Assembly: GCA_965649295.1 (NCBI GenBank) | Contig: CBFGKH010000001.1 | Span: 32,001-96,000 of the forward strand | DNA length: 64,000 nt | Direction: 5' to 3' | Source: a candidate division WOR-3 bacterium | Lineage (GTDB): Bacteria > Hydrothermota > Tepidihabitantia > Tepidihabitantales > Tepidihabitantaceae | In this document: positions 30,274 through 54,875 of the stretch, piece by piece | Numbering within the stretch: position 1 is the first letter of the stretch | How the letters are laid out: each line of letters starts with the position of its first letter | The notes under the pieces: model-generated | Databases searched by the model: none | What the model was told of the DNA's origin: nothing | The model's input: only the letters and a program-made list of their open reading frames with translations | Translations under genes and position numbers: made by a program

Positions 30274-31351
30274 ACTTGTAGTACGCTGCACAGGCACCTT
30301 CCGATGATACCATGCACGGACCAAACGGCCGTTCCGGGGTGCAGCGACGCGCAAAGAGACCACAGTCGGTTGGCAGCAGCCTCCCTAGCATCACCTCACC
30401 GCACCGACAGCTGCTCTTCTTTGGTCGGACAGGCCTGACATCAAACCGCTGCCACGCATCGAACTCTGCAAACTCCGCCCGTAAACGCAGTCCCGAATCA
30501 GGAATCGTGCCGATACCACGCCACGACGCAGCACATGGTTCAAACACCTGTGCCATCAACTGGCGAGCAACCTGATTGCCCTCGACACGCACGCTGCGGC
30601 GATACTGCACCGCCACCTCTGGCCCGCTCTGCAACTGTTCAAGCAGTGACAGTATGGCCTGCAGCACATCCAGCGCCTCAAACCCTGCCACGCAACTCGG
30701 CATTCGGTACCTCTCTACAAGAAACCGATAGGGTTCAGAACCAATGATTGTCGAGACATGCCCCGGCAGAATGAATCCATCAATCCGACTTCCTTCATTT
30801 GCAGCAATGTAGTCCAGTGCCGGCGGAATCAACTTGAACATCGTCAGCACCGTGAAGTTGCGCAGACCGGCTTCTTTGGCTGAAACCAGTGCTGCCGCCA
30901 CGGTCGGAATCGTTGTCTCAAAACCGACACCGAGAAAAACAAACTCACCCGGCTCAGCCTTGGCCATTCGGACAGCATCAAGTGGTGAATAGACAACACG
31001 GACATCCGCACCCGCGGCCCGGGCAGTTTCGAGCGAACCACCACTACCCGGCACTCGCAACATATCACCGAAAGTGACAACCTTCACCCCTTCCCTTCTG
31101 GCTAAGCTGACACAGGCGTCAATCTCCTCCTGCGCTGTCACACAAACCGGACATCCTGGTCCGGAAAGCAGCCGCAGCCGATCATCAACTGCCCGCCGGA
31201 TGCCAGAGCTTGATATCGCCATCGTGTGGGTTCCACAAACCTCCATTAGATTGATCTCCGCTCGCTCGCGACATAGTTCGGCAACGATTTGGTTGATGCG
31301 ACGAAGCAAAGCCCTGGCCACCACCGATTCTGAAGCGCTCTGCTTCTTCAT
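30260..31351 (-). CDS. hypD: Hydrogenase maturation protein HypD
   Basis: MEVCGTHT, GPGCPVC, GFETT, PGHVS, CMVSSEGAC. Confidence 0.96.
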   Translation of the reverse strand: MKKQSASESVVARALLRRINQIVAELCRERAEINLMEVCGTHTMAISSSGIRRAVDDRLRLLSGPGCPVCVTAQEEIDACVSLARREGVKVVTFGDMLRVPGSGGSLETARAAGADVRVVYSPLDAVRMAKAEPGEFVFLGVGFETTIPTVAAALVSAKEAGLRNFTVLTMFKLIPPALDYIAANEGSRIDGFILPGHVSTIIGSEPYRFLVERYRMPSCVAGFEALDVLQAILSLLEQLQSGPEVAVQYRRSVRVEGNQVARQLMAQVFEPCAASWRGIGTIPDSGLRLRAEFAEFDAWQRFDVRPVRPKKSSCRCGEVMLGRLLPTDCGLFARRCTPERPFGPCMVSSEGACAAYYKYERN

Positions 31352-31356
31352 AGCTG

Positions 31357-31384
31357 ATTATAGTTGCGGTCTACTCACGGTCAA
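31357..31384 (-). promoter_or_regulatory. Leaderless promoter for hypDE
   Basis: TTGACC-N16-TATAAT-N5-ATG. Confidence 0.7.
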
Positions 31385-31463: not shown

Positions 31464-31828
31464 TGCACCCCTTTCTAGGTGCAGAACCGAACCGTTCACA
31501 TCGGTTCTAACACTCGGTTCTACAATCTGATAGCCGGATTCTCGTAGTTACCCCTCCCCTGTCTCCGGGGTTGTCGCCGATGCTCCTGCCAAGTCCCTCA
31601 GGCACAAGCCTGGTCAAGGCACTTACCAATAGACCAGCGACTGGACTCAGAACTAAGCCATCGCAGCAGCCCGCGACTGAGCAGGATGACAGCTTCCGCA
31701 GGATGCCTCGGAAACCCCAAGAGACCGGGCTTCGAGAGCTACCCTCGCTTGGGCGCGCAGACGACCCTCACTAGGGCCACGACCGAGCCTTCCCAGTACG
31801 GTCTCGATGCTGGCTTTGCTTGACGCTA
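31464..31828 (-). repeat. Copy A of a dispersed element: ~23 degenerate 12-bp units (31553-31828) plus conserved cassette (31464-31552)
   Basis: On the minus strand position 3 of the 12-mer is a purine in 23/23 units; cassette GCTATCAGATTGTA (31534-31521), TTAG, GGTTCGG, TGCACC-N8-GGTGCA matches copy B without gaps. Confidence 0.8.
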
Positions 31829-31866
31829 CCGGATCCTAATGTCGGAGCGACTGTTCCGCGCCGACA

Positions 31867-32622
31867 CTAGTACTCTCCACGAGTGAAGAAGAAAACCGCA
31901 GCAGCGGTGGCAACAGCACCGAACAGGATCAAGAACCCGATATCGAACCACGGATTGTAGTACCCGAACCCAAGGACGAGTCTGCGAATCAGGTCCACAC
32001 CGTAGGTGAGCGGATTGATGCGAACAAGCAGCCGGAGCCACCACGGCAGATTAGTCGGCGGGAACATCGCTCCGGAAAGAAACCACATCGGCATGATGAT
32101 GAAGTTCATTATTGTGCCGAACCCCTGAAACGATGTCATCCGGGCGGCAATCACGATACCAATTCCGGTGAGCGCAAATGACATCACCATCATCACGCAG
32201 ATGAGCAACGGGATGCTGCCAAAGGCCAATCGAACGTGAACGAACGGCGCCAGCAGCAGGATGATACAGCCCTGAATCAAGGATAGGGTCGTCCCGGCGA
32301 GACCCTTGCCGATGACGATTGATGTCCGTGGCACCGGTGCCACAAGTATCTCCTTCAAGAAGCCAAACTCGCGATCCCAGATGATACTGATTGCCGACTG
32401 GATGGAGGTGAATATCGAGGTCATAGCGATAATACCGGGAAAGATGAACTGCGTGTAGTTGACGCTGCCAATCTGGCTATACGAGCCGCGCAGCCCCATT
32501 CCCAGAATGAAGAGCCAAAGTACCGGTCTGGTGATTGAGCCATAGAGCTGACTGCGCTCCCGGAAGTAACGGATGATATCTCGCTGCCAGACCATTTGGA
32601 TGCAGGCAAGGTCAAACACCAT
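31867..32622 (-). CDS. ABC-2 type exporter permease (DrrB-like)
   Basis: Six TM segments, DREFGFLKEILVAP, NPLTYGVD. Confidence 0.88.
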   Translation of the reverse strand: MVFDLACIQMVWQRDIIRYFRERSQLYGSITRPVLWLFILGMGLRGSYSQIGSVNYTQFIFPGIIAMTSIFTSIQSAISIIWDREFGFLKEILVAPVPRTSIVIGKGLAGTTLSLIQGCIILLLAPFVHVRLAFGSIPLLICVMMVMSFALTGIGIVIAARMTSFQGFGTIMNFIIMPMWFLSGAMFPPTNLPWWLRLLVRINPLTYGVDLIRRLVLGFGYYNPWFDIGFLILFGAVATAAAVFFFTRGEY

Positions 32623-43989: not shown

Positions 43990-44897
43990 TGACATTCGAA
44001 TCCAAGCGCTACCGCGGCACCGAAATAGCCATCGCCATCTCGGTTCTCCTCCACGCCATCGGCTTGATACTCGCCTCGCGGCCAGCTCCTGAAGCCAGCA
44101 CCGCTGCCGACCTGCAGGAAGTCTCGTTCATGGACGTGACCTACCGCCCCGAAGTTGCCAAGATTCTTGCCAAAACTGAAATCCCGGGTGGCGGCGGCAC
44201 TGACGCGGCCACCGCCACGGCACCAACCTACTCTGCTGGCATCGCCGCCGACGAAGTTCCAGCCATTGACCTCTCGGCCAAGCTCGAACGCGACAACTCT
44301 CAAGCCAAGATTGACCTCGACCGCTATGAACTCGACCGCGGCGACAACATCAACGTCATCCGGCTCGGCGGCTCCGGCTCGACCAAATCCACCGAGGAGA
44401 TTCTTGCCCAGCCCAAAGTCGAACTGTCACGCAGCCTTGGCCGTGGTAGCGGCACCGGCCTGCGCGGCGTCCCCGGCATACCCCAGCCTACTGCCCAGCT
44501 CACCATCGAAAGCCGGCCCCTTGCCAAACCGGCTGCCCGGCCCTTGCCCACGGTTCCGACTGCTGACCTGCCCAAAGTCACCGCCCCGGTCAGCCGCGGT
44601 ACCAACTTCATGGTTGCCGGCCCGATATCCCAGCGCGAGATTACCAGAAAAGTTGTCCCGCGCTACCCCAAGTGGGCACTCGAACGCCGCATCTCTGGCA
44701 CTGTTGTCGTCCGGCTCTGGGTTCAACCCAACGGCCAAGTCAAAGGTACACCCACCGTTGAGTGCAGCTCCGGCTATCCGGACCTCGACCAGGTCGTGAT
44801 TGATGCTCTGCGCGCCTGGGAATTCGCTCCGCTCGGCCCCAATGTCAAAGCTGAAGACCAGTGGGGCGTAATCACCTTCAAGTTCACTCTCTCCTAA
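43986..44897 (+). CDS. tonB: TonB family energy transducer
   Basis: SVLLH TM motif, Pro-rich linker, PRYP..A...GTV, SSGYPDLD TonB_C. Confidence 0.85.
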   Translation: MMTFESKRYRGTEIAIAISVLLHAIGLILASRPAPEASTAADLQEVSFMDVTYRPEVAKILAKTEIPGGGGTDAATATAPTYSAGIAADEVPAIDLSAKLERDNSQAKIDLDRYELDRGDNINVIRLGGSGSTKSTEEILAQPKVELSRSLGRGSGTGLRGVPGIPQPTAQLTIESRPLAKPAARPLPTVPTADLPKVTAPVSRGTNFMVAGPISQREITRKVVPRYPKWALERRISGTVVVRLWVQPNGQVKGTPTVECSSGYPDLDQVVIDALRAWEFAPLGPNVKAEDQWGVITFKFTLS

Positions 44898-44898
44898 C

Positions 44899-45762
44899 AT
44901 GCTGATTGCTGGCCTGCTCCTGCTCTTGGCCCAGCCCGCCGCCTCGAACTCCGACCAGCACGCCATCGGCGAAGAGGTCATCACCGGCCAGGCCGAAATC
45001 AAGATTACCGATACCAAACCCTACTTCTCGCCCCAGCTTGACCCGTTTGCACCAATTACCGGCCTATTGGCCCCAGAAACCTACGTGCTCGACGACGCCC
45101 TGCTCCGGTCAATTGACTCAATGACCATTCCCCAGCAGTTCATCCGTTCCTCCTACCTGCGGGTGCCAGTCGAACGCGGCTTCATCTACAGCGACGTGAT
45201 GCTCTTTCTGCCGTCCTTCGAGACCCGAGTCGCCAACTGGGAACTGGTCATCGCCAACTCACTCGGCGAGACGGTTCGCCGCATCAGCGGCAAGGGCCAG
45301 CCGCCCGCGGCTCTCTCCTGGAATGGCCGTTCCGACAAGGGGGAGATGATTGCCCCCGGTGAAGTCTATAGCTTCACCTTCAATGCCTACGACGCCCGCG
45401 GCAACCAGACTCGGATTCCCGGCACGCCGCAGCGCATCAATGCAGTCGCCTACCAGGCTGACGGTGAGTGGGTCGTCGCCATCGCTGCTGACCAGCTCTT
45501 TGCCGAGGGCAGCAACCAGTTGCTCGAACCAGCAGCCGCCCGCCTTGACGAGGCCGCCAATATCATCAAAGAGCACTTCCGCAAGGAAGTCGTGGTCTAT
45601 GTCTATTCTGAGCAGGAGAATCTCTCTGCCGACCGCTGCCAAGTGATGCAACGGGAGCTCAGCCGCCGCGTGGTCCTGCCCCGCGAGGGAATCAAGGTTG
45701 CCCCGCGCTTCATCCCCGGGCTGCAGCCCAAGTTCTCCAAAGTCGAAATCCACATCCTCTAG
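44899..45762 (+). CDS. Exported protein with FlgD-Ig domain and degenerate OmpA-like C domain
   Basis: Signal peptide; WNGRSDKGE; LFAEGSNQL...LD..A...LSADR. Confidence 0.6.
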   Translation: MLIAGLLLLLAQPAASNSDQHAIGEEVITGQAEIKITDTKPYFSPQLDPFAPITGLLAPETYVLDDALLRSIDSMTIPQQFIRSSYLRVPVERGFIYSDVMLFLPSFETRVANWELVIANSLGETVRRISGKGQPPAALSWNGRSDKGEMIAPGEVYSFTFNAYDARGNQTRIPGTPQRINAVAYQADGEWVVAIAADQLFAEGSNQLLEPAAARLDEAANIIKEHFRKEVVVYVYSEQENLSADRCQVMQRELSRRVVLPREGIKVAPRFIPGLQPKFSKVEIHIL

Positions 45763-45878
45763 TCCGGCCCTCCCCAACCGGGCGACAACTGCCAGTCTGC
45801 CGCAGCCACCAGTCCCTCGCTGCCTCTTAGCACCGGCAGTTTGACTCACAAACAAACCTGGCTAGATTACCATTAGCG

Positions 45879-47735
45879 TTGACCCATTCTTCCTCTCGTA
45901 CTGATATTTTCGTTGCTGCCGGCTGCGGCCTGGTTGCGCTGGTCAACTACTTAGCAACCCTTGGCCCAACTGTCGGGCCTGGCGACGCCGGCGAACTGAC
46001 CCTTGCCGCGCTCCGGCTTGGCATCGCCCACCCGCCTGGCTACCCGCTCTTCACCTGGCTTGGCCGGCTTGCCTGCCTACTCCCTTTCCGCGAACCAGCA
46101 GTCGCTACCAACAGCCTGACAGCCCTGATTGGCGCTGCCACTGTCACAGTTCTCTTCCTTGCCGCCCGCCGACTTGGTCTCTCCCTCATCGGCGCTCTGG
46201 TCGCGGCCCTAGCGCTCGGATTCGGCCCAGCCTTCTGGCTCGTGGCAACCAGCCACGAAGTCTATACCCTCACCATTCTCTTTCTCTGTCTCCTTCTTCT
46301 TTCCGTCTCTTTACCCAGTCCTGAACACTCCAACCCCTCGCCGCGGCCGCCCCTGCTTGCGGCCCTGCTGCTCGGCCTCGCCCTCTCTCACCAGCCGACA
46401 ACCCTACTCTGGCTGCCCGCCCTAATCGTTATCGCTTGGCCCTATCGCCGGCTCGTCACGCCCCGCCTCACCCTACTCTTAGCCGGCCTCATGCTCCTCG
46501 GCTTCTCAGCCAGTCTCGGCACCCTCTTTCGCGCCCTGGCCCGACCCGAAATCAACTGGGGCAACCCTAACACCCTTGGCCGGTTCCTTGCCCATGCCTT
46601 TGCTGCCCAATACCGCTGGCTTTCCTTCCGCACTCCTGGCCCTGAGTTCATGGAACGGCTTCGCTCGCTCCCAGCCGACATCGCCACTGGCCTCGGCATC
46701 GTCCCTAGCCTTGTCGCCCTGCTCGGCTTCGTTGTGCTGGCTTTCCGACCTAGTCGTCTGCTCCTCGGTCTTGGTCTCCTCTTCAGCACTGCCCTGTTTG
46801 CCCTTGGCTACTGGATTCCCGACTACCGCTTCCATCTACTGCCTGCCCTGGTTGCTGTTAGCCTCTTTGCCGGCAAAGGTGCCACCTGGCTCGAAACCCG
46901 CATCGCTGCCATTCCCCGGCTAGGCCGTCGCCCCAACCCAAGCCTAGCAAACATCTTCACAGCTCTCGCCATCCTCATCCTGCTCGCCATTCCCGGCCAC
47001 ACCCTTCTCGCCTACCGCCGCATCACGAACGAAAACAAAACAACGATTGTCCGCGACCTTGGCGAGAACCTGCTCTACTCCTTGCCTGACAGTGCTATTC
47101 TGCTCTACGGCGGCGACCTTGCCGGCAATGCAATTCGCTACCTACAGCAAGTGCGCGGCATCCGTCCTGATGTCCAGACCATCGCTGTTGCTCGCCTCCT
47201 TGCCCAGGAGTACTACGACAGCCTAAGGTTTCTCGCCCCGCTCCCTGACTGGCGCGCCACCCTTGCCTCCTCCGCGGCCACCGACCAGAACAGCCTGCTC
47301 CGGACTGTCTTCACTGCTCTTACCCAGGCCCTGCTCCTGCACCGTCCCTGCTACCTCACCGTCGAGATTGTCACCGACATGTTCTTTCCCAGTCCTCTCT
47401 ATCAGTCCCATCTGGTCGTACCCGAAGGCATCGTCTATCGCCTCATTCCCCGTCAGGTGACAGTCAATCTGCCCGCTGTCATTGACCACAGCCGCCACCT
47501 CTGGGCCGGCTACCGCCTCACCTCACTCCATTACCCGTTCACCTCTCCCGACTACCAGCACATCCAGTTCACTTATGCTGCTGCCCGCAACAACTTCGCC
47601 ATGTTCCTCCACGAACATGGCCAGACCGCTGCCGCCATCGAACAACTCCACCTTGCCCTAAGTCTGCCTGCTCCGCCTGAACTTACCCGCCTGGTCCAGG
47701 ACAACCTTCGCCGCCTCCAGCCCGACCGCAATTGA
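45879..47735 (+). CDS. DUF2723/TMEM260-like GT-C membrane glycosyltransferase
   Basis: GDAGEL...GIAHPPGYP, EVY, many TMs, C-terminal TPR; promoter TTGACT-N16-TAGATT at 45841-45868. Confidence 0.82.
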   Translation: MTHSSSRTDIFVAAGCGLVALVNYLATLGPTVGPGDAGELTLAALRLGIAHPPGYPLFTWLGRLACLLPFREPAVATNSLTALIGAATVTVLFLAARRLGLSLIGALVAALALGFGPAFWLVATSHEVYTLTILFLCLLLLSVSLPSPEHSNPSPRPPLLAALLLGLALSHQPTTLLWLPALIVIAWPYRRLVTPRLTLLLAGLMLLGFSASLGTLFRALARPEINWGNPNTLGRFLAHAFAAQYRWLSFRTPGPEFMERLRSLPADIATGLGIVPSLVALLGFVVLAFRPSRLLLGLGLLFSTALFALGYWIPDYRFHLLPALVAVSLFAGKGATWLETRIAAIPRLGRRPNPSLANIFTALAILILLAIPGHTLLAYRRITNENKTTIVRDLGENLLYSLPDSAILLYGGDLAGNAIRYLQQVRGIRPDVQTIAVARLLAQEYYDSLRFLAPLPDWRATLASSAATDQNSLLRTVFTALTQALLLHRPCYLTVEIVTDMFFPSPLYQSHLVVPEGIVYRLIPRQVTVNLPAVIDHSRHLWAGYRLTSLHYPFTSPDYQHIQFTYAAARNNFAMFLHEHGQTAAAIEQLHLALSLPAPPELTRLVQDNLRRLQPDRN

Positions 47736-47759
47736 CGGCAGCCTGCCGAACTGTATGAT
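47732..47759 (+). promoter_or_regulatory. Leaderless promoter for fabH
   Basis: TTGACG-N16-TATGAT-N7-GTG. Confidence 0.6.
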
Positions 47760-47766
47760 AGATTCA

Positions 47767-48813
47767 GTGAGTGAACTTTCTTTGTTGGCCGACCTGCCCC
47801 AGACCGTCTCTGTCGAAGCCAAACCCCGCCTCTACTCGGCAGTAGTTGCCGGCACCGGCTTTGACGTGCCCGAAAAAATAATGACCAACGCCGACCTCGA
47901 AAAGCTCGTTGACACTTCCGACGAGTGGATAGTCGAGCGCACCGGCATGAAAGAACGTCGTATTGCCCGGCCTGACCAGGCCGCATCCGACTTTGCCCTG
48001 GCAGCCTGCCAGCGTGCGCTTGCCGATGCCAACACCCGGCCTGACGAGATTGACCTGATTATCGTTGCCACTGTCACCGGCGACATGGCCTTTCCCTCCA
48101 CTGCCTGCATCCTGCAGGACAAGCTCGGCTGCACCCACGCTGCAGCAATGGACCTAAGTGCCGGCTGCACTGGCTTCATCTACGCCCTTGCCACTGCCCG
48201 CCAATTCATCGCCACCGGCACCTACAAAACCATCCTCGTCGTCGGCGTCGAAGTCCTCTCTAAGATTACCGACTGGACCGACCGCGGCACTTGTGTCCTC
48301 CTCGCTGACGGCGCCGGCGCCGCAGTCCTGCGCGCCACTGACGAACCCGGCCGTGGCATCATCGCTACCTACCTTGGTGCCGACGGTTCGCGTGGCAACG
48401 ACCTCTATATGCCGGCTGGCGGCTCCCGCATTCCCGCTTCCCACGAATCAGTCGCTGCCCGCCAGCACTACCTCAAAATGAACGGCAATGCCATCTTCAA
48501 AGTCGCAGTCCGAGCCATGGCCGACTCGGTTCGCCGCGTTCTCGAACAAGCTCGACTCAAAGCCAGCGACGTCAAGCTCCTCATTCCCCACCAGGCCAAC
48601 CTGCGGATAATCGAAGCCGTGGCCAAACTACTCCGTTTCCCGATGGACAACGTCTTCGTCAACATCCAGAAATACGCCAACACCAGCTCGGCCACCACCA
48701 TCATCGCCCTTGACGAAGCCCGCAAGGCCGGCCGGATTCTGCCCGGCGACCTTGTCGTTCTCGTTGCCTTCGGCGCCGGTCTCACTTGGGGCGGCGTCGC
48801 CATTCGCTGGTAA
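47767..48813 (+). CDS. fabH: Beta-ketoacyl-ACP synthase III
   Basis: DTSDEWI, AGCTGF, PHQAN, NTSSA, GAGLTWG; start moved to GTG 47767. Confidence 0.95.
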   Translation: MSELSLLADLPQTVSVEAKPRLYSAVVAGTGFDVPEKIMTNADLEKLVDTSDEWIVERTGMKERRIARPDQAASDFALAACQRALADANTRPDEIDLIIVATVTGDMAFPSTACILQDKLGCTHAAAMDLSAGCTGFIYALATARQFIATGTYKTILVVGVEVLSKITDWTDRGTCVLLADGAGAAVLRATDEPGRGIIATYLGADGSRGNDLYMPAGGSRIPASHESVAARQHYLKMNGNAIFKVAVRAMADSVRRVLEQARLKASDVKLLIPHQANLRIIEAVAKLLRFPMDNVFVNIQKYANTSSATTIIALDEARKAGRILPGDLVVLVAFGAGLTWGGVAIRW

Positions 48814-49181
48814 ACCCACCCCAAAGCCCAGTCGCCAACCCTTTCCTGAGCAGCGACCAGAACAGCGTCTAAGACCTGCCCAGCTAGCCACCACCAAAGA
48901 GCCCACAAGGCTCAGCCACGGGCTTAGCCGAAAATGGTTATCCAGACACAGTCCCCAACCTGATGCGAATCACATCAGCAGACATTCCCCAAAACTCCTC
49001 CCCCAAGCCATCAGCAAGCAGCTAGGCCAGCACCAACCCAATGAGCCTTGGCAACACCCGCGCAGACCATCCCGGGGACGAGGGAGGGGGTCTGGTACTC
49101 AGCAAGCTATCAGATTGTAACAAGGCAACTTAGGCACACTTCCCTAGGTTCGGCTCTGCACCCTAGGAAGGGTGCAGAGCC
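48812..49181 (+). repeat. Copy B of the dispersed element: 23 degenerate 12-bp units (48812-49087) plus conserved cassette (49088-49181)
   Basis: Purine at unit position 2 in 22/23 and position 3 in 21/23, C at position 4 in 18/23; GCTATCAGATTGTA 49106-49119; perfect 13-bp hairpin 49152-49181. Confidence 0.8.
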
Positions 49182-49207
49182 TGACTCCCCATCGCCCAAC
49201 TAGTTGC

Positions 49208-49400
49208 GGCGATTCCTCGCTACACTCGGGATGACAGAAAGCCCGTCATTCCGAGGCCGCGATGCGGCCGAGGAATCGCCGACCCGTCATCTCTGCCCAG
49301 CGACTCCTCGTCGCCAGACTCCTCGGAATGACACCGCTGCTGGCGAAGGACAGCAGAAGACCCTTCGACTCCGGCCCTATGGCCTTCGCTCAGGGTGACA
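49208..49400. repeat. Cluster of four REP-like palindromic units (GTCATYCYGAG...GAGGAATC type)
   Basis: Units 49211-49236, 49245-49277, 49302-49333, 49359-49400; the first two are an inverted pair. Confidence 0.75.
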
Positions 49401-49442
49401 AGAAGGCACGATTCCGCTCGAACTGACCCTAGCCAAGACGAA

Positions 49443-49470
49443 CCGGCGGCAGGCACAAACCTGCCGCCGG
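49443..49470. terminator. Rho-independent terminator-like hairpin, probably bidirectional
   Basis: CCGGCGGCAGG-CACAAA-CCTGCCGCCGG perfect 11-bp stem, ATTTTCTT on the plus side, 20 bp from the stop at 49490. Confidence 0.75.
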
Positions 49471-49489
49471 ATTTTCTTCCGCTTGTCGC

Positions 49490-52400
49490 TTAGTGCTTGA
49501 GTATCAGCTTGCGCGTGGCCGTAAAGGTTCCCGACACCATTCTGACATAGTAGATGCCCTCAGGCAGCATCCGCTCGCGCCAGTCACGGCCATTCCAATC
49601 AACCTGGTGGCGACCAGCAGGCAACGGCCCCGAGACCAACGTCCGAACCGCGTTACCAGCCGCGTCGAAGACTGTTATTTCAAGCATCGCCGGCGTCGGC
49701 AGCGCAAAGCTGATGGTCACCCTCTGGCTGAACGGCGTTGGCCGAGCACTTTCGAGTGCAAGGCGACCAGGCAATCCTGCCGGCCGGTCAGCCAAACCCT
49801 GCGGCGGCAGAACTGTGACCTCGTTGTAGGCAGTGTCGTTGGCCGGGTCGACATCACCGACAAGCGCGCTGTAGCAGGTAACCGGCAGCGTACCAACCGG
49901 CCCGGCTGTCCAGCGCGGGAATCGAATCGTGTCCTCGGCCCGAGGCTCAAGCCGGTGGGTCGTGTCGGCGCGGTAGGAAGTGCCAATCAGGAATGTTACC
50001 GGCACCCCTTCGCTGAAGCTCGTGTAGTTGCGCAGCACGGCAACCGGCGTCACCTGTTGGCCCGAGTCAATTCGACCGGTTGGCGCGATGATGGCCGTGA
50101 TGCCAACGTCGTGGATCACGCGCTGGACTGTCACCTGCGCCCGGGCAGTGTCGTTGGCTGGGTTGGCGTCGCCCAGTAGCCGGGTGAAGCAAGTTATCGG
50201 ATGGGTGCCAACCGGACTGGCAACCCACTGCCGGAAGGTGACAATGGCTGAGTCGTTGCCAGCGACCGCTACTGCTGTGTCAGCAATGTAGTAGGGCCCG
50301 ATGATGAATCGCACCGGCACAACCTCAGGTTGCTGGGTGTAGTTGCGGACAACTGCCCGCGGCTGGATTACGGCACCGGAGTCAATAGTACCCACCGGCT
50401 GCAGAACACGGCTAACACCAACATCATGCGGCGCCGGCCGAACCATGCACTCAGCATAGGCAGTGTCGTTGCGCGGGTCGGCGTCGCCGTCAATGCTGAC
50501 CCAGGCCGTGACGTACATCAACCCCACGCTATCGGCGGTCCAATCGGGCAAGGCAACAACCGAATCCCGCCCCGGGGCCAGCCTGACTTCTACTGCCTCA
50601 TCGTAGAGTAGCACGTCCCGCGACTGCGTCTTCTCTTCCAGACCTTTTCCGGTCTTCTCTGCCCAGGCCTCGATTATCATACGCAGCACAAACGGCTCGC
50701 TGGTGTTGCCGTAGTTCGTTACCTGAACCAGTGGCGTGACGGTTGCTCCGGAATCAATGTCGCCAACCGGTGCCTCAATCTGCCTTGCGGCAACATCGAG
50801 ATAGCGAATGATAACGGTCTGCAGCAGAGTATCGTTAGCTGGGTTGGCATCGCCTTCGAGCCTTATCCAGGCAGTGGCCAGCAGCACTTGCGGGTCACGG
50901 GCAAACCAGTTAGTGAAAGTTGCGACCGCCGAGTCGCCGGGTTGAATCACACCCGGGTCAGCCACGTCGCTGTAGCCATCGCTGATGGTCAGAAAGACTC
51001 GCGGCTGCGAGGCAACCGAGCCGTAGTTGCGCAATACAATCTGCGGCTGAATCCGGTCGCCGGGGTTGACGATGCTCTCTGGCGCAATGAACCTGGTGAC
51101 GCCGACATCAATTCCGGTCTGCCGGGCATAGACGGTGGCAGTGGCCCGGTCATTGGCCGGCACCAGGTCACCGCTCAGCATTGTCGAGCATGAAACCGCA
51201 TACTGACCGATGCCAGGCGGTGTCCAGGGCGTGGCCGAGATGAGGAGGCTCTCGCCCGGCGCCAGCGTAATGTTGTTGACCGTGACGTTGTAGCCAGCGC
51301 CAATTCGGAAGCGGGCAGCAAAGACCTGGGTTGGTGAGCCGAAGTTACGCACCCAGGCCTGCGGAATGATGACCGTGTCCACCGGCACCGTGTCGCGCGG
51401 CGCAACAATTCGCAGGCAGCCGACATCACGATAGCTGACAATCACCGAAGTCTCTTTGATGTTGTTGACTGGGTCAGGGTCGCCGGTCGTGACCACACTA
51501 CAACGCGCCACCAGCGTGCCGAACTCAGCAGCAGTCCAGCGCGGGAAGGCAACATGGGCTGTCTCGCCAGCGCGGAGCAGCCCGAGGCTCGTGCTTTCAC
51601 GGTAGAGCGTGCCAATGGTAAAGAAGACCCGATAGAAGGCTGAGTCGGTCCCGATATTGGCAACCCGGCAGCGCGGCGTCGCAGTGTCGCCAAGATTGAA
51701 CGACCCGCGCGGCGCGTAGATGGTGTCGGCCCGAAGATTGCGGTCCACATAGCTGAGCCGTCCCAGCACCAGGCTGGTCCAGCCACCACTGCGGTCAGCC
51801 TGGCCGGCAAAGTAGACAGTATTGGTATCAAGCGCAGCGACCGCTGCTCCCAGCCCACCCAGGCGATCGGGCGAATCGTAACGCACTGCCCAGAGCGTGT
51901 CCTTGTTGCTGCCGACCGGGTCGGTCTCGGTGTAACAGAGCGTCACGAGCACATCACCGACCGTACCGGCAACATAAACCCGCCCGCCCTGATAGGCGAC
52001 CTTGTAGCCATAGGCGTCATCTTCGCCATACACCGCACCAGCCGGACCCCAGCGACTGACGAGTGTACTGGAGAAACGATTCGTGCAGATGATGTCGTTA
52101 TCGTAGCTGAGCATCCCTGTCACATAAACATTGGGCGGATTGGCATTGTCCAGAGCGATGCTCGAAGCGTAGTCGTCGCCGTCATAGCCGCCAATGTTCA
52201 GGCTGCGCCAGTTGAGCAATGTGCCGGCGGAATTGAACCGGGCGACTGCATAGTTGTAGCCCTCGCTGATAATGCCGTCATCGTTGTAGTCAAACCCGCA
52301 GATGTAGATGTCGCCAGATGGAGCCAAGGCCAGGTCAAATGGCACATCAGCGTCGTGGATAATAGTGTTGGGATTGCGGTAGGTGCGACGCCAGAGCGTG

Positions 52401-53176
52401 TCACCGCTGGGCCGCAGTTTCATCGTCCACCATTCGAGGTCGAAGAATCGGTGCAGTCCGAAGCCGGTAACGACGACGTTCGAGTCCAGGCCGACCGCAA
52501 TGGCGGTCGCGCAGTTGTCAAACTCAGCGTAGTCCTGGAAGAACCAGGGATGGACGTCGCGCTGCCTCAGCTTGCTCTCGCGGGCCAGCGTGTCGAGGAC
52601 GTAGCGCCGGGTCCAGATGGTGTCGCCAGTTGCGCAACTAATCTTGAGAATGGTGTAGGCGGAAAGGTTGCGGGTTGAGTCAAACGCAGTACCGGCAATA
52701 TAGGCAACACCGCCCGGCCCCAGTGCAATGTCAAAGGCCGCGTCATCATAAGGCCAGAGCGTCTTCTTGGCCCAGACCTGGTTGCCGATAGTGTCATATT
52801 TCACCCAGGAAATGTCGGCTCCGCGTGGCAGCAGGTTGTAGGTAACGCCAGCAACATAGACATTCCCCTCACTATCAACTGCCAGCGCATGGGCCATGTC
52901 GTCCTGACTGTAAGTGTTACCGCCATAGGACTGCGACCAGCGTAGCTGGCCGTCGAGAGTGTAGCAGGCGGTGAGCATGTTCGTCACAGTCGGCCACTGC
53001 GGCGCTTCGCCCGAACCACAGATGTAGATACGGTTGCGGCCGGCATCAACATACATGTCGGCCGTCATGTTGAACTGGTTTTGACTCTGACCGTCATAGA
53101 GCCGAGTCCAGAGCGTATCAATGGCACCGGCCAAGGCCAGGGCCGGTAACAGAACTACCAGGCGGAGAAATCTCAT
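49490..53176 (-). CDS. Secreted beta-propeller protein with about six CARDB repeats and FlgD-Ig/T9SS-type CTD
   Basis: Signal peptide, SD GGGAGG; GNVYVAG/DTLW propeller repeats; repeated D.NP.ND; WNGRD...GIYYVR...RKLILKH. Confidence 0.8.
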   Translation of the reverse strand: MRFLRLVVLLPALALAGAIDTLWTRLYDGQSQNQFNMTADMYVDAGRNRIYICGSGEAPQWPTVTNMLTACYTLDGQLRWSQSYGGNTYSQDDMAHALAVDSEGNVYVAGVTYNLLPRGADISWVKYDTIGNQVWAKKTLWPYDDAAFDIALGPGGVAYIAGTAFDSTRNLSAYTILKISCATGDTIWTRRYVLDTLARESKLRQRDVHPWFFQDYAEFDNCATAIAVGLDSNVVVTGFGLHRFFDLEWWTMKLRPSGDTLWRRTYRNPNTIIHDADVPFDLALAPSGDIYICGFDYNDDGIISEGYNYAVARFNSAGTLLNWRSLNIGGYDGDDYASSIALDNANPPNVYVTGMLSYDNDIICTNRFSSTLVSRWGPAGAVYGEDDAYGYKVAYQGGRVYVAGTVGDVLVTLCYTETDPVGSNKDTLWAVRYDSPDRLGGLGAAVAALDTNTVYFAGQADRSGGWTSLVLGRLSYVDRNLRADTIYAPRGSFNLGDTATPRCRVANIGTDSAFYRVFFTIGTLYRESTSLGLLRAGETAHVAFPRWTAAEFGTLVARCSVVTTGDPDPVNNIKETSVIVSYRDVGCLRIVAPRDTVPVDTVIIPQAWVRNFGSPTQVFAARFRIGAGYNVTVNNITLAPGESLLISATPWTPPGIGQYAVSCSTMLSGDLVPANDRATATVYARQTGIDVGVTRFIAPESIVNPGDRIQPQIVLRNYGSVASQPRVFLTISDGYSDVADPGVIQPGDSAVATFTNWFARDPQVLLATAWIRLEGDANPANDTLLQTVIIRYLDVAARQIEAPVGDIDSGATVTPLVQVTNYGNTSEPFVLRMIIEAWAEKTGKGLEEKTQSRDVLLYDEAVEVRLAPGRDSVVALPDWTADSVGLMYVTAWVSIDGDADPRNDTAYAECMVRPAPHDVGVSRVLQPVGTIDSGAVIQPRAVVRNYTQQPEVVPVRFIIGPYYIADTAVAVAGNDSAIVTFRQWVASPVGTHPITCFTRLLGDANPANDTARAQVTVQRVIHDVGITAIIAPTGRIDSGQQVTPVAVLRNYTSFSEGVPVTFLIGTSYRADTTHRLEPRAEDTIRFPRWTAGPVGTLPVTCYSALVGDVDPANDTAYNEVTVLPPQGLADRPAGLPGRLALESARPTPFSQRVTISFALPTPAMLEITVFDAAGNAVRTLVSGPLPAGRHQVDWNGRDWRERMLPEGIYYVRMVSGTFTATRKLILKH

Positions 53177-53232
53177 CTTACCTCCCGACGGTTAGTCTCT
53201 TCAGTGGCAGCGCCCAGCGCCAGCCCGGGTAG

Positions 53233-53361
53233 AGAATATCGGCTGGCATGGCTGGTGTCAATCAACCAGCCCAGGGCGTCGAGACTGCAACTGGCAGTCA
53301 CACCATAACTTGACGCTTACACACCATCATCCGTTGACTTCAGCATAGCGGCGAGTAAACT
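53233..53361. promoter_or_regulatory. Divergent promoters
   Basis: Minus: TTGACA(53261)-N17-TATTCT; plus: TTGACT(53334)-N16-TAAACT. Confidence 0.55.
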
Positions 53362-53414
53362 GACGCGGCCCGAGATGCCGGTTCGGACACCGAAGAGGAG
53401 CTTACGCTGCTCAG

Positions 53415-54875
53415 ATGATTGAACTACAAACAATCGATACTGCTGTCGGCCGCCACGAAGTCCTGGACGAGCTTCAGGAAGGCTTCTGGGTTGCTGACAG
53501 TCAGGGTCGAATCGTCTATGCCAATCCGGCCTTGGCCCGAATCTTGGGGCTTGATAGCCCTGAGGCCCTGGTTGGCCGACCCTGGCGCGAACTGGTTCCA
53601 GAAGCCGATGTCGGCCGGCTCACCCGTTCCCGGCCCAGCGAGGGCGCGGTAACCGTCAGCACAACCCTCAACAGCAAGAGTGAACAACTCATACCCGCTT
53701 CGGTAACGGTGATGAAACGGAGTGCTGGCCGGATGCAGCTCCAGGTCGGGATCGTGACGCCTGAGGCCGCTCCCCAGCCCCAATCTGGCATTGCCGACGC
53801 GACCTGGCGTCAGATAGTCGAAAACTCAGTTGACGGCATCGCCATCGTTGAACAGGGTAAGACCATCTTCGCCAACCACCGCCTCGAAGAGCTTGCCGGC
53901 TATACTGTCTCGCAGATTCAGCACCTTGGCCTCGAACGGTTGATTGCTGCCCGCGACCGACGCGCCGTTGGCGAAATCATCAACCAGCCAGCTCGCCTTC
54001 TGACACCGGTTCACTACGAAGTCCGAATAGTCCATCGCTCCGGCAATGAGCTGGAGTGTGAGATGCGCGTTGTCCCGATCCAGACCAAAGGCCAGCAACC
54101 AGCCATCCTGGTCTTTGTCCGCGACGTCTCTCAGCTCAAGCAGGCCGAACGGTCGCGCAATGAGGTCGTGGCAATGCTCTCGCATGACCTGCGTACGCCG
54201 CTGGCTGCGATCAAGGAAGCAATGTCGCTCTTGGCTGAGACCGCGGCCACTCGCCTCGAAGACCGACAGCGCCGCTACCTGATTATCGCCCGCGAGGAGA
54301 TTGACCGACTCAATCGGATGATTGACAATCTGGTCGAGGCGACGCGGATGGAGTCGGGCAAGGTCGTGCTGCGGCTCGACGCCGTTGATATAGCTGCTCT
54401 GCTCTCCAGTGCCATCGAGAGCCTCTCGCTGCTCATCAACAAACGCAACCTAACGATCGAACGCAGCATCCCCGCCCGCCTGCCGCCGGTCCTCGGCGAC
54501 CGCGACCGGCTGCTGCGCGTCCTGAACAATCTTGTTGATAACGCCATCAAGTACTCACCGGTCGGCGGCACGATTCGGATTGATATCGAGTTTGTCGACC
54601 CGAATGACCCGTTGCTCGTCGGCCCCGGAATTCTCCCCAACACCGGCTACATCAAACTGACAATCAGTGACGAAGGTCCAGGCATCCCGGCGGAGTTCCT
54701 GGACCGCATCTTCGGCAAGTTCGAACGTGTTGACCCCCACGGCCCGGGCATCGGACTGGGTCTGGCAATAGTCAAATCAATCATCGAAATGCACCACGGC
54801 AAAGTCTGGGCCCAGTCCAAGCTCGGTGAAGGTGCCCGTTTCAGCTTTATTCTACCCATCAAGGAGGCTAACTAG
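53415..54875 (+). CDS. Cytoplasmic PAS-PAS sensor histidine kinase
   Basis: Two PAS domains; SHDLRTPL, NLVDNAIKY, DEGPGI, GIGLGL. Confidence 0.92.
   Translation: MIELQTIDTAVGRHEVLDELQEGFWVADSQGRIVYANPALARILGLDSPEALVGRPWRELVPEADVGRLTRSRPSEGAVTVSTTLNSKSEQLIPASVTVMKRSAGRMQLQVGIVTPEAAPQPQSGIADATWRQIVENSVDGIAIVEQGKTIFANHRLEELAGYTVSQIQHLGLERLIAARDRRAVGEIINQPARLLTPVHYEVRIVHRSGNELECEMRVVPIQTKGQQPAILVFVRDVSQLKQAERSRNEVVAMLSHDLRTPLAAIKEAMSLLAETAATRLEDRQRRYLIIAREEIDRLNRMIDNLVEATRMESGKVVLRLDAVDIAALLSSAIESLSLLINKRNLTIERSIPARLPPVLGDRDRLLRVLNNLVDNAIKYSPVGGTIRIDIEFVDPNDPLLVGPGILPNTGYIKLTISDEGPGIPAEFLDRIFGKFERVDPHGPGIGLGLAIVKSIIEMHHGKVWAQSKLGEGARFSFILPIKEAN

What the first reader, a model, noticed from the sequence alone, without database searches (positions are those of the whole stretch)
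48812..49181. Unrecognised dispersed element: 12-bp-periodic array plus fixed-geometry cassette, present twice
Seen: the two long intergenic regions (48812-49181 plus; 31464-31828 minus) align without gaps over the cassette GGGAGG-N18-GCTATCAGATTGTA-N10-TTAG-N13-GGTTCGG(C/T)TCTGCACC-N8-GGTGCA. The N stretches differ between copies but their lengths are identical. Upstream of each cassette lie about 23 in-phase 12-bp units (276 bp). Both copies follow the stop of a co-oriented, unrelated gene (fabH; ABC permease). No transposase, integrase, Cas or RT gene is adjacent. Knowledge: this does not fit CRISPR (no identical repeats), REP, IS ends or any riboswitch I recognise. Inference: conserved blocks at fixed spacing suggest a multi-site nucleoprotein platform, a recombination/attachment site that gains 12-bp units, or a guide-array-like ncRNA served by a protein encoded elsewhere.
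Basis: partly seen in the sequence, partly recalled or inferred. Interest (0 to 1): 0.92.

Follow-up and report, generated by a model that had tools for sequence, protein, structure and literature searches.

The report
Phased 12-bp DNA tracks with HTH partner
The two stretches are gene-less copies of a roughly 375-bp non-coding module (about 23 phase-locked 12-bp units plus a fixed cassette ending in a palindrome) that occurs more than fifty times in this genome and, in its complete form, sits in front of a lineage-specific DNA-binding protein whose tail is predicted to look like the coat proteins of archaeal filamentous viruses, which wrap 12 bp of DNA per dimer.

Summary
Both copies align without gaps over the cassette. 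Across 27 copies in this genome the roughly 270 nt upstream stay in one ungapped 12-nt register. Only three positions per unit are constrained: purine, purine, then not-A. A register profile finds 53 to 63 such arrays in the 2.28-Mb genome.

The element is not a CRISPR array, shows no Rfam match, holds no ORF, and does not behave like a folded RNA. Its orientation relative to neighbouring genes is random.

New here: the full module is array, G-tract core, CTAAC..GTTAG, palindromic operator at a promoter, then an XRE-type HTH gene. That gene family is confined to one bacterial order, with up to 22 matches per genome. The two window copies are solo copies that keep the operator (TGCACC-N8-GGTGCA) of one HTH paralog encoded elsewhere.

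The protein's C-terminal half is predicted to resemble the major capsid proteins of archaeal filamentous viruses (Z 9.8 to 11.6). Papers report that these wrap 12 bp of A-form DNA per dimer.

Best reading (about 0.55): a DNA-level docking track coated by this protein. Function is inferred, not shown. Two earlier notes of this scan describe the same family elsewhere in this genome.

The parts
48814..49070 (+). Copy A, array: about 21-22 phase-locked 12-nt units, starting right after the fabH stop codon (48811-48813)
   Evidence: Ungapped column statistics over 27 copies. Register-profile score 67.1.
49071..49090 (+). Copy A, G-tract core CCCGGGGACGAGGGAGGGGG. It is the last, best-kept units of the array and continues the register.
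   Evidence: Invariant or near-invariant columns. Related cores close the arrays in other genera.
49106..49133 (+). Copy A, box GCTATCAGATTGTA-N10-TTAG. It corresponds to the CTAAC..GTTAG inverted pair of relatives.
49152..49181 (+). Copy A, palindrome TGCACC-N8-GGTGCA (49157-49176; arms extend to 13 bp in this copy). Probable operator of the HTH paralog at G000:C4:31360-32076. This is the right edge of the element.
   Evidence: The same palindrome with an 8-nt spacer occurs in 19 elements, including the one directly upstream of that HTH gene.
31571..31838 (-). Copy B, array: about 22-23 phase-locked 12-nt units downstream of the ABC-permease ORF (31867-32622, minus strand)
   Evidence: Register-profile score 44.3.
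31551..31570 (-). Copy B, G-tract core CCCCGGAGACAGGGGAGGGG
31507..31534 (-). Copy B, box GCTATCAGATTGTA-N10-TTAG
31464..31483 (-). Copy B, palindrome TGCACC-N8-GGTGCA (probable operator). This is the right edge of the element.
31357..31384 (-). Context, not part of the element: hypD's own promoter-like site TTGACC-16-TATAAT, 5 nt before the hypD ATG (31351) and about 80 bp beyond the element's edge
   Evidence: HypD assignment from Pfam at 474.5 bits.
49443..49470 (.). Context, not part of the element: bidirectional terminator-like hairpin beyond copy A. A fabH read-through transcript would therefore cross the element.

Best explanation
The element works as double-stranded DNA. It is a docking track for a lineage-specific protein that has an N-terminal XRE-type helix-turn-helix domain and a basic, all-helical C-terminal half.

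Shown:
- The complete module is array, G-tract core, CTAAC..GTTAG pair, a palindrome overlapping a promoter-like site, then the HTH gene.
- Many copies, including both in this window, have lost or never had the gene. They keep the array, the cassette and the paralog-specific palindrome, and their conservation stops right after the palindrome.

Inferred:
- A dimer of the protein binds the palindrome, which is the usual way such genes repress themselves.
- From there, further copies of the protein line the 12-bp register, one per unit, over about 276 bp. They read little more than a purine pair per unit.
- The C-terminal half is predicted to resemble the capsid proteins of archaeal filamentous viruses, which wrap 12 bp of A-form DNA per dimer. 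The track may therefore be sheathed in a similar way.

What the roughly 50 sheathed intergenic segments do for the cell is unknown. Possibilities include titrating the regulator, blocking or insulating transcription, or marking and organising the chromosome.
For: 1. Association with the gene.
- In G014 the cassette is followed about 20 nt after the palindrome by HTH_31 genes scoring 39.7 and 41.9 bits against a cut-off of 27.
- G000 has 6 matches to this protein. Three of them (C4:31360, C1:137600, C9:9215) and a fourth with internal stops (C8:92913) have an array directly upstream.
- In 32 loci from the genome collection, the 640 nt upstream beat the gene body in 31 of 32 for the register profile (medians 22.0 against -15.2). 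They also beat it in 31 of 32 for lag-12 self-identity (medians 0.31 against 0.09). Six of the 38 loci were dropped beforehand for too little upstream sequence.
- The same holds in other families of the order: lag-12 identity is 0.48, 0.52 and 0.41 in G056, G037 and G047.

2. Operator logic.
- The palindrome differs by lineage and by paralog, and it sits at -35/-10-like boxes before the gene.
- In G000, 19 arrays carry the palindrome of paralog C4 and 17 carry the TGTGTACT..AGTACACA type of paralog C9.

3. DNA-level behaviour.
- Orientation is random: co-co 16, co-convergent 11, divergent-co 13, divergent-convergent 10 of 53 arrays, with 3 at contig edges.
- 47 of 53 arrays lie outside long ORFs.
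- There are stops in all six frames.
- RNA folding is ordinary.

4. The protein.
- The family is found in 43 of 44 genomes of the taxonomic family, with up to 22 matches per genome.
- It was found only in this order: 0 of 166 sampled genomes elsewhere in the phylum.

5. Fold.
- The AF2 models score pLDDT 89.9 and 91.2.
- For the C-terminal domain alone, the five best of 48,161 chains are all capsid proteins of filamentous archaeal viruses: 3fbl Z 11.6 with rmsd 1.6 over 80 residues, 5w7g_B Z 10.9 over 121 of 126 residues, 3fbz 10.4, 3f2e 9.8 and 6wq0 9.8.
- Three more capsid proteins follow at Z 8.0, 7.9 and 7.3. Only 6 chains in all reach Z>=8.
- The arm region is net positive in 14 of 14 members.

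6. Literature (passages read).
- SIRV2, AFV1 and PFV2 hold 12 bp of A-form DNA per capsid-protein dimer (PMC5517147; PMC7189273).
Against: - No binding or expression data exist. Everything about coating is inference.
- The fold match is moderate. The tool itself warns that helical bundles can reach Z of about 13 by arrangement alone. Foldseek gives no match at E<=0.001 (best capsid rows have E about 1, with prob 0.97, 0.82 and 0.80). Pfam and PHROGs find nothing in the C-terminal half.
- The unit code is directional. Information sits at phases 11, 0 and 1, and the best dyad correlation is only 0.38. A two-fold symmetric dimer sitting on each unit would not predict this.
- The degenerate code of about 1.5 bits per unit is thin for sequence-specific HTH contacts.
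- Not every homolog shows a clear array. Of 30 upstream regions, 21 passed one or other test. Three of 6 loci (G026, G001, G015) had no lag-12 peak.
- Phase assignment in other genera used the G000 profile, so the shared purine-pair rule there is partly circular.
- Solo copies that follow genes are probably transcribed passively, so an RNA role cannot be ruled out.
Confidence: 0.55

Rival explanations
1. It is a non-coding RNA. The array would be a linear track read by an RNA-binding protein (a sponge, a Rho-loading site or a guide array), and the cassette would be a structured 3' handle ending in a hairpin.
For: - Several copies start right after a stop codon, so they would be transcribed as a 3' UTR. 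For copy A the nearest terminator-like hairpin lies beyond the element.
- T is depleted on one strand, at 9-25%.
- From recall, a 12-nt spacing of pyrimidine pairs on the other strand resembles descriptions of rut sites.
- The palindrome could fold as a hairpin.
Against: - Orientation to flanking genes is random.
- No conserved promoter was seen at the 5' edge.
- Array folding z averages -0.50 and -0.36.
- 0 of 10 consensus pairs covary, and the hairpin stem is invariant within a class.
- C/G skew flips between copies: 0.39 C and 0.19 G in copy A against 0.27 C and 0.34 G in copy B. This does not fit a rut site.
- In complete modules the palindrome overlaps promoter boxes of a DNA-binding protein gene.
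- Rfam finds nothing at gathering scores.
Confidence: 0.12
2. It is a selfish or decaying repeat with no host function. The upstream region of the HTH gene gets duplicated, or moves like a MITE, and the gene then decays. The solo copies are relics, and the register is a by-product of how the array arose as a minisatellite.
For: - In G014 near-identical solo copies keep only the first 8 or so codons of the HTH gene, or a copy truncated after about 24 codons.
- The copy after fabH is not at the same site in other genera: 0 of 29 relatives' fabH loci have it downstream of fabH. One weak hit on the other side of the gene in G001 is not counted.
- Arrays in some genomes are homogeneous tandem repeats.
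Against: - The G000 copies are old: cassette columns average 65% identity and the arrays cannot be aligned. Yet across 27 copies there are essentially no indels over about 270 nt, and three phases per unit are held at 88-99%. Neutral relics should lose register.
- I saw no terminal inverted repeats or shared left-end motif.
- No transposase lies beside the copies I inspected.
Confidence: 0.17
3. It is an iteron or centromere-like site of a replication or partition system. Direct repeats would be bound by the adjacent autoregulated DNA-binding protein to fire an origin or to be pulled by a motor.
For: - The layout of direct repeats, an inverted-repeat operator at the promoter and a gene for a DNA-binding protein is, from recall, that of iteron plasmids and of parC or tubC centromeres.
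- From recall, tubC units are 12 bp.
Against: - There are 53-63 copies spread over a 2.28-Mb chromosome.
- The HTH genes I inspected stand alone, with no NTPase or replication gene beside them.
- Units within one G000 array share no sequence beyond three positions.
- No Rep-like or ParB-like domain is found.
Confidence: 0.06

Closest known systems
Major capsid proteins of archaeal filamentous viruses (realm Adnaviria: SIRV2, AFV1, SFV1, SIFV, SSRV1, PFV2) on A-form DNA
   Same: - The predicted C-terminal half matches their helical arm plus four-helix bundle.
- Their repeat is 12 bp of DNA per dimer (passages in PMC5517147 and PMC7189273), equal to the period of the array.
- The arm is basic.
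   Different: - This is a bacterial chromosomal gene family with an added N-terminal HTH.
- No sequence similarity was detected.
- The viral proteins coat whole genomes without known sequence phasing, whereas here the DNA itself carries a phased, directional code.
- No virion genes are nearby.
- A 2024 review calls the fold unique to these viruses and sees no link to viruses of bacteria (passages in PMC10848233).
Autoregulated XRE / controller (C) proteins with palindromic operators (C.AhdI, C.BclI, ClgR, DdrO)
   Same: - The HTH domain matches them by sequence and by fold (1y7y at E 3.2e-5).
- The palindrome overlaps the gene's own promoter-like boxes.
   Different: - Those proteins are 70-130 residues, with one to a few operators.
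- Here the proteins are 240-400 residues, with a roughly 276-bp phased array and dozens of gene-less operator-plus-array copies.
TubR-tubC and ParR-parC centromeres; iteron arrays of plasmid origins (recalled, not checked in a paper here)
   Same: Tandem direct repeats lie just upstream of the gene of the protein that binds them, and that protein coats the repeats cooperatively.
   Different: - Those arrays have 3-10 near-identical units on one replicon, with a motor or initiator partner.
- Here there are about 23 units that share only three positions, at more than 50 chromosomal sites, and no partner gene was seen.
Dispersed bacterial repeats (REP/BIME, BOX, MITEs)
   Same: Multi-copy, intergenic and indifferent to orientation.
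   Different: - Those repeats are short, or are alike in sequence along their whole length.
- Here only geometry and a cassette are kept, and a cognate protein gene exists.
Rho utilisation (rut) sites
   Same: Roughly 12-nt spacing of a pyrimidine pair on the complementary strand.
   Different: - The array is 23 units long.
- C/G skew is not consistent between copies.
- Orientation to transcription is random.
- The element is tied to a DNA-binding protein.

Membership tests
Adnaviria-type (SIRV2-fold) DNA-wrapping capsid protein | C-terminal four-helix bundle with an extended N-terminal helical arm | tested here: inconclusive
   - For: the top five VIA-align matches of the domain model are these proteins, at Z 9.8-11.6. 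One alignment covers 121 of 126 residues, arm included.
- Against: Z lies below the tool's caution line for helical bundles, and Foldseek E is about 1.
Adnaviria-type (SIRV2-fold) DNA-wrapping capsid protein | Binds 12 bp of double-stranded DNA per dimer and turns it into A-form | not testable with these tools
   Support is indirect only: the DNA beside the gene has a strict 12-bp period.
Adnaviria-type (SIRV2-fold) DNA-wrapping capsid protein | Recognisable sequence relationship to a viral capsid family | tested here: not met
   There is no hit in PDB sequences beyond the HTH, none in Pfam at E<=10, and none in PHROGs at E<=1 for 14 members. The viral families themselves are not alike in sequence either (PMC7189273).
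XRE-family helix-turn-helix regulators | HTH_31/HTH_3 domain above Pfam's cut-off | tested here: met
   HTH_31 scores 39.7 and 41.9 bits against a cut-off of 27. Fold matches to C.AhdI, C.BclI and ClgR appear.
XRE-family helix-turn-helix regulators | Binds a palindromic operator at its own promoter | tested here: inconclusive
   Lineage-specific palindromes lie at -35/-10-like boxes before the gene in the loci read. No binding data exist.
CRISPR array | Near-identical direct repeats separated by unique spacers, usually with cas genes | tested here: not met
   Units share only three constrained positions. No repeat-spacer structure is present, and no cas gene was seen next to the two window copies.
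Any Rfam family | Covariance-model score at or above the gathering threshold | tested here: not met
   0 matches in the 64-kb window.
Structured non-coding RNA in general | Conserved base-pairing with compensatory changes; stability beyond shuffles | tested here: not met
   0 of 10 consensus pairs covary in 19 copies. Mean z is -0.50 and -0.36 for 27 arrays.
MITE / IS-derived element | Terminal inverted repeats, target-site duplication, a related transposase | tested here: inconclusive
   - No shared left-end motif or inverted copy of the right end was found in 27 copies.
- Target duplications were not examined systematically.
- The genome was not searched for transposase families.
Iteron origin / plasmid-type centromere | Near-identical tandem units plus an initiator or a motor-adaptor pair | tested here: not met
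   G000 units are not alike. The HTH genes I inspected are monocistronic, with unrelated neighbours.
Rho utilisation site | C-rich, G-poor transcribed strand upstream of a termination zone | tested here: not met
   On the cassette strand, C minus G ranges from +0.20 to -0.18 among copies. Orientation to genes is random.

The most novel reading that the evidence does not exclude
The protein nucleates at a paralog-specific operator and then sheathes a programmed 276-bp track, one dimer or monomer per 12 bp, perhaps in A-like DNA. It does this at more than fifty chromosomal sites. If so, this would be the first non-viral member of that fold and the first DNA known to carry a phased 'ruler' code for such a coat. 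It would bear on where that capsid protein came from.
Probability: 0.3. Interest if true: 0.92.

Novelty: categorically new. Interest (0 to 1): 0.86.

Why it matters
If the reading holds, four things follow:
- It adds a new kind of bacterial chromatin element. These are long protein-coated DNA segments whose only conserved feature is a 12-bp register, present at about 1 site per 40 kb.
- It gives the capsid protein of the Adnaviria, so far called unique to archaeal viruses (passages in PMC10848233), a cellular counterpart with a defined DNA substrate. That makes the origin of the capsid, and the sequence rules of A-form wrapping, open to experiment.
- The register code and fixed length could serve as a programmable scaffold for protein filaments on DNA.
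- Even on the sceptical reading, it is a large, undescribed repeat family. It explains many long 'empty' intergenic regions in this lineage and defines an unannotated, strongly expanded regulator family.

Tried and rejected
- **Protein-coding reading.** All six frames carry stops; the best frame has 54 stops in 27 copies. Open frames in homogeneous arrays of relatives are what any stop-free repeat gives (read).
- **Rfam.** Gathering thresholds gave 0 hits. I did not run the permissive E-value mode.
- **RNA structure.**
- **Expression.** No RNA holder was listed for window 44500-53500.
- **Close strains.** One metagenome scan with the motif returned 6 loci, all AT-rich chance matches without the element.
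- **Left-end motif or promoter.** None is consistent across copies.
- **Sigma-54 or Bacteroidota-type promoter in the cassette.** I considered this by eye and the spacing does not fit.
- **IHF-site and G-quadruplex readings of the cassette.** Considered from recall only and not tested.
- **Lag-12 test.** My first version was biased: random windows also peak at lag 12 in 54% of cases, with excess up to 0.169. I therefore used control thresholds, a register profile and gene-body controls.
- **Co-occurrence of arrays and the protein outside the order.** This test remains open.
- **Self-association of the protein.** Complex prediction never accepted the job because its queue was full at every try, so there is no result.
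- **ESM Atlas.** No usable hit.
- **Organism names.** The genome-collection titles say only 'uncultured bacterium', so I name no phylum.
- **Literature.** Searches for a 12-nt or 12-bp periodic element and for XRE plus 12-bp direct repeats found nothing relevant. Searches for cellular or bacterial homologs of the Adnaviria capsid protein listed no such report. These searched open-access full text only.
Full report
**The observation**

From GGGAGG to GGTGCA the two copies align without a gap. The conserved blocks are GCTATCAGATTGTA, TTAG and GGTTCGG(C/T)TCTGCACC-N8-GGTGCA. The stretches between them have equal length but different sequence.

The exact motif GCTATCAGATTGTA-N10-TTAG occurs only at these two places in the 2.28-Mb, 19-contig genome, against 0 for the backwards control. 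With up to two mismatches there are eight matches, again against 0. A profile of those eight finds 27 copies at E<1e-3. A covariance model built from 19 copies finds 35.

**The 12-nt register**

I stacked the 27 copies without gaps on the CCCGGGGAC anchor. Every twelfth column from about -258 (weakly -270) to -6 is A or G and almost never C. The column after it is almost never A, and the column before it is 88% purine. Over 621 units, C is 0.01 at phase 0 and A is 0.02 at phase 1.

Information sits at phases 11, 0 and 1 (0.50, 0.58 and 0.44 bits). The other positions are near background, and mutual information within a unit is at most 0.10. The anchor motif is itself the last unit.

So 22-23 units keep one register across paralogs whose array sequences cannot otherwise be aligned. 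The cassette is equally rigid. The palindrome starts at +85 in 12 of 19 copies and at 84-87 in the rest, always with an 8-nt spacer.

A register profile scanned over the whole genome gives 70 peaks of 22 or more. The reversed and complemented controls give 7, with a control maximum of 38.0. Of the real peaks, 53 exceed that maximum, and all 27 listed copies are recovered.

**What it is not**

- All six frames carry stops.
- Rfam at gathering scores finds nothing in the window.
- RNAalifold on 19 copies yields only the invariant hairpin and a four-pair C/G helix, with 0 of 10 pairs covarying.
- Array folding energies are ordinary in both orientations, with mean z of -0.50 and -0.36 over 27 arrays at 40 shuffles each.
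- Of the 53 strong arrays, 47 lie outside long ORFs.
- Their orientation to neighbours is even: co-co 16, co-convergent 11, divergent-co 13, divergent-convergent 10, with 3 at contig edges.
- I saw no conserved promoter or end motif at the left border.
- C/G skew on the cassette strand flips between copies.

**Relatives**

The covariance model hits 28 of 44 genomes of the taxonomic family, in 13 of 15 genera. There the arrays are often plain tandem repeats. Their unit differs from array to array, for example GGCGACGAGGTT, CAACCGGGAGAG, CCCCGGGACGGC and GTTACTCCCGGN.

Where self-similarity allows measurement, the arrays span 21-29 units in eight clear cases. The other nine measured spans were shorter (8.8-15.7 units); I read them as lower bounds because of degeneracy.

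The copy after fabH is specific to this lineage. None of the 29 relatives' fabH loci has it downstream of fabH. One weak hit in G001 lies on the other side of the gene.

**The partner gene**

In G014 the cassette is followed, about 20 nt past the palindrome and after a GGAGG, by genes of 255 and 380 residues with an HTH_31 domain. Many near-identical G014 copies keep only the first 8 or so codons, or a truncated gene.

G000 has six matches to this protein:
- C4:31360-32076, directly downstream of a full element at 104.6 bits.
- C1:137600-138715 and C9:9215-10099.
- C8:92913-93599, a copy with internal stops. These four all have arrays upstream.
- C4:146702-146941, which has no array.
- C8:50569-50784, a weak match (E 0.006) that I did not examine further.

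The family is in 43 of 44 genomes of the taxonomic family, with up to 22 matches per genome. In a sample of 201 genomes of the phylum it appears only in the five families of one order: 18/18, 8/8, 1/1, 1/3 and 1/4. It appears in 0 of 166 genomes elsewhere.

Array tests on 30 upstream regions gave the following. Fifteen exceed the control maximum for lag-12 excess. Seventeen exceed the 99th percentile of the profile control. Twenty-one pass one test or the other.

In an overlapping, larger set from the genome collection, 38 loci were found and 6 were dropped for short upstream sequence. Upstream beats gene body in 31 of 32 for both measures. Three loci from two other families show lag-12 identity of 0.41-0.52. 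Three further loci (G026, G001, G015) show none.

**Architecture**

In the loci I read the order is:
1. the array;
2. a core of two or three G-tracts;
3. a CTAAC..GTTAG inverted pair;
4. a -35-like box with a palindrome whose sequence is specific to lineage and paralog;
5. a -10-like box;
6. the start codon a few bases on.

This is the layout of an autoregulated XRE or controller protein.

In G000, conservation in solo copies ends right after GGTGCA(A), and the -10 box is not kept (read). Among the 70 profile peaks, the sequence that follows the array falls into these classes:
- 19 have the TGCACC palindrome of paralog C4.
- 17 have the TGTGTACT..AGTACACA type of paralog C9.
- 4 have a TATACT type.
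- 30 have something else. About 7 of these are expected to be false.

The two window copies are solo copies of the C4 class. hypD, downstream of copy B, has its own promoter-like site about 80 bp beyond the element.

**The protein**

Sequence searches recognise only the HTH. The AF2 model (pLDDT 89.9) is all-helical after residue 85, and Foldseek sees only HTH proteins.

VIA-align against 48,161 chains puts capsid proteins of archaeal filamentous viruses on top for residues 100-230. A model of the C-terminal half alone (pLDDT 91.2) gives the same result. Ranks 1-5 are 3fbl (Z 11.6, rmsd 1.6 over 80 residues), 5w7g_B (Z 10.9, 121 of 126 residues), 3fbz (10.4), 3f2e (9.8) and 6wq0 (9.8). Ranks 7, 8 and 13 are SIFV, SFV1 and PFV2. 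Only six chains reach Z>=8.

Foldseek gives these proteins its only high probabilities (0.97, 0.82 and 0.80), but at E of about 1. The tool warns that helical bundles can reach such Z values without being related.

The arm region is net positive in 14 of 14 members.

**The link to 12 bp**

Passages I read say that AFV1 and SIRV2 fit 12 bp per repeat (PMC5517147). They also say that PFV2's asymmetric unit is a heterodimer plus 12 bp of A-form DNA, and that the N-terminal arm wraps the duplex (PMC7189273). A 2024 review calls this capsid protein unique and sees no tie to viruses of bacteria (PMC10848233).

The period of the DNA and the fold of the adjacent protein were found independently and point the same way. 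That is why I rank the coating model first.

Two things weigh against it. The unit code is directional, with a best dyad correlation of 0.38, which a symmetric dimer does not explain. And nothing has been shown at the bench.

**Standing**

Two earlier notes of this scan (e1-5218617 and e1-5218623) describe the same family elsewhere in this genome. They read it on the other strand, as a leader followed by units that start with a pyrimidine pair, and they call it undescribed. I agree on the register. New here are the copy census, the operator classes, the partner protein and its predicted fold. My literature searches listed no description of such an element or of a bacterial counterpart of that capsid fold. 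They covered open-access full text only.

Noticed in passing
window 49195-49400: A different, REP-like repeat family (GTCATTCCGAGG ... CCGAGGAATC, with several inverted copies) fills the gap between copy A and the terminator. Similar units appear near other elements (for example C14_24055 and C7_112017, and C6_152361).
   Followed up: no
L063, L064 and L075 (downstream of fabH in G018, G009 and G014): A conserved small hairpin, GGATGC..CTTCCTCCTTTCC..GCATCC followed by CCACCCCCTGCC, sits a few bases after a TATAAT box. Its loop contains CCUCC, like the anti-Shine-Dalgarno sequence. It may be a small RNA gene. It is absent at this site in G000.
   Followed up: no
window 31351-31384 (minus strand): The hypD promoter-like site TTGACC-16-TATAAT ends 5 nt before the ATG, which suggests a leaderless mRNA. 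Several other genes after elements have a TATAAC/TATAAT box just upstream of the start.
   Followed up: partly
L098, L101, L103, L105 and L107 (G014): Solo copies in G014 break off into runs of a different short repeat (GAACCACAGATGRACACAGAT and similar). The break comes within the first codons of the lost HTH gene, which hints at a recurrent breakpoint or insertion hot spot.
   Followed up: no
G000:C8:92913-93599 (L121): One HTH paralog has internal stops (1 TGA and 1 TAA). It still has a strong array upstream (score 59.7), and a few solo arrays carry a similar TATACT motif.
   Followed up: partly
arrays of G056 and G037 (L171, L172): In low-GC relatives the unit reads YCCCTAAGC / CTCCCSAAG. 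It therefore contains CCCTAA, the C-strand of the canonical telomere repeat. This is probably coincidence.
   Followed up: no
cassette, all genera: A stop triplet (TAA or TAG) within GGCTAAC / GACTAG is kept at the same place in most relatives, but reads TAT in G000. I have no explanation for this beyond its being half of the CTAAC..GTTAG inverted pair.
   Followed up: no
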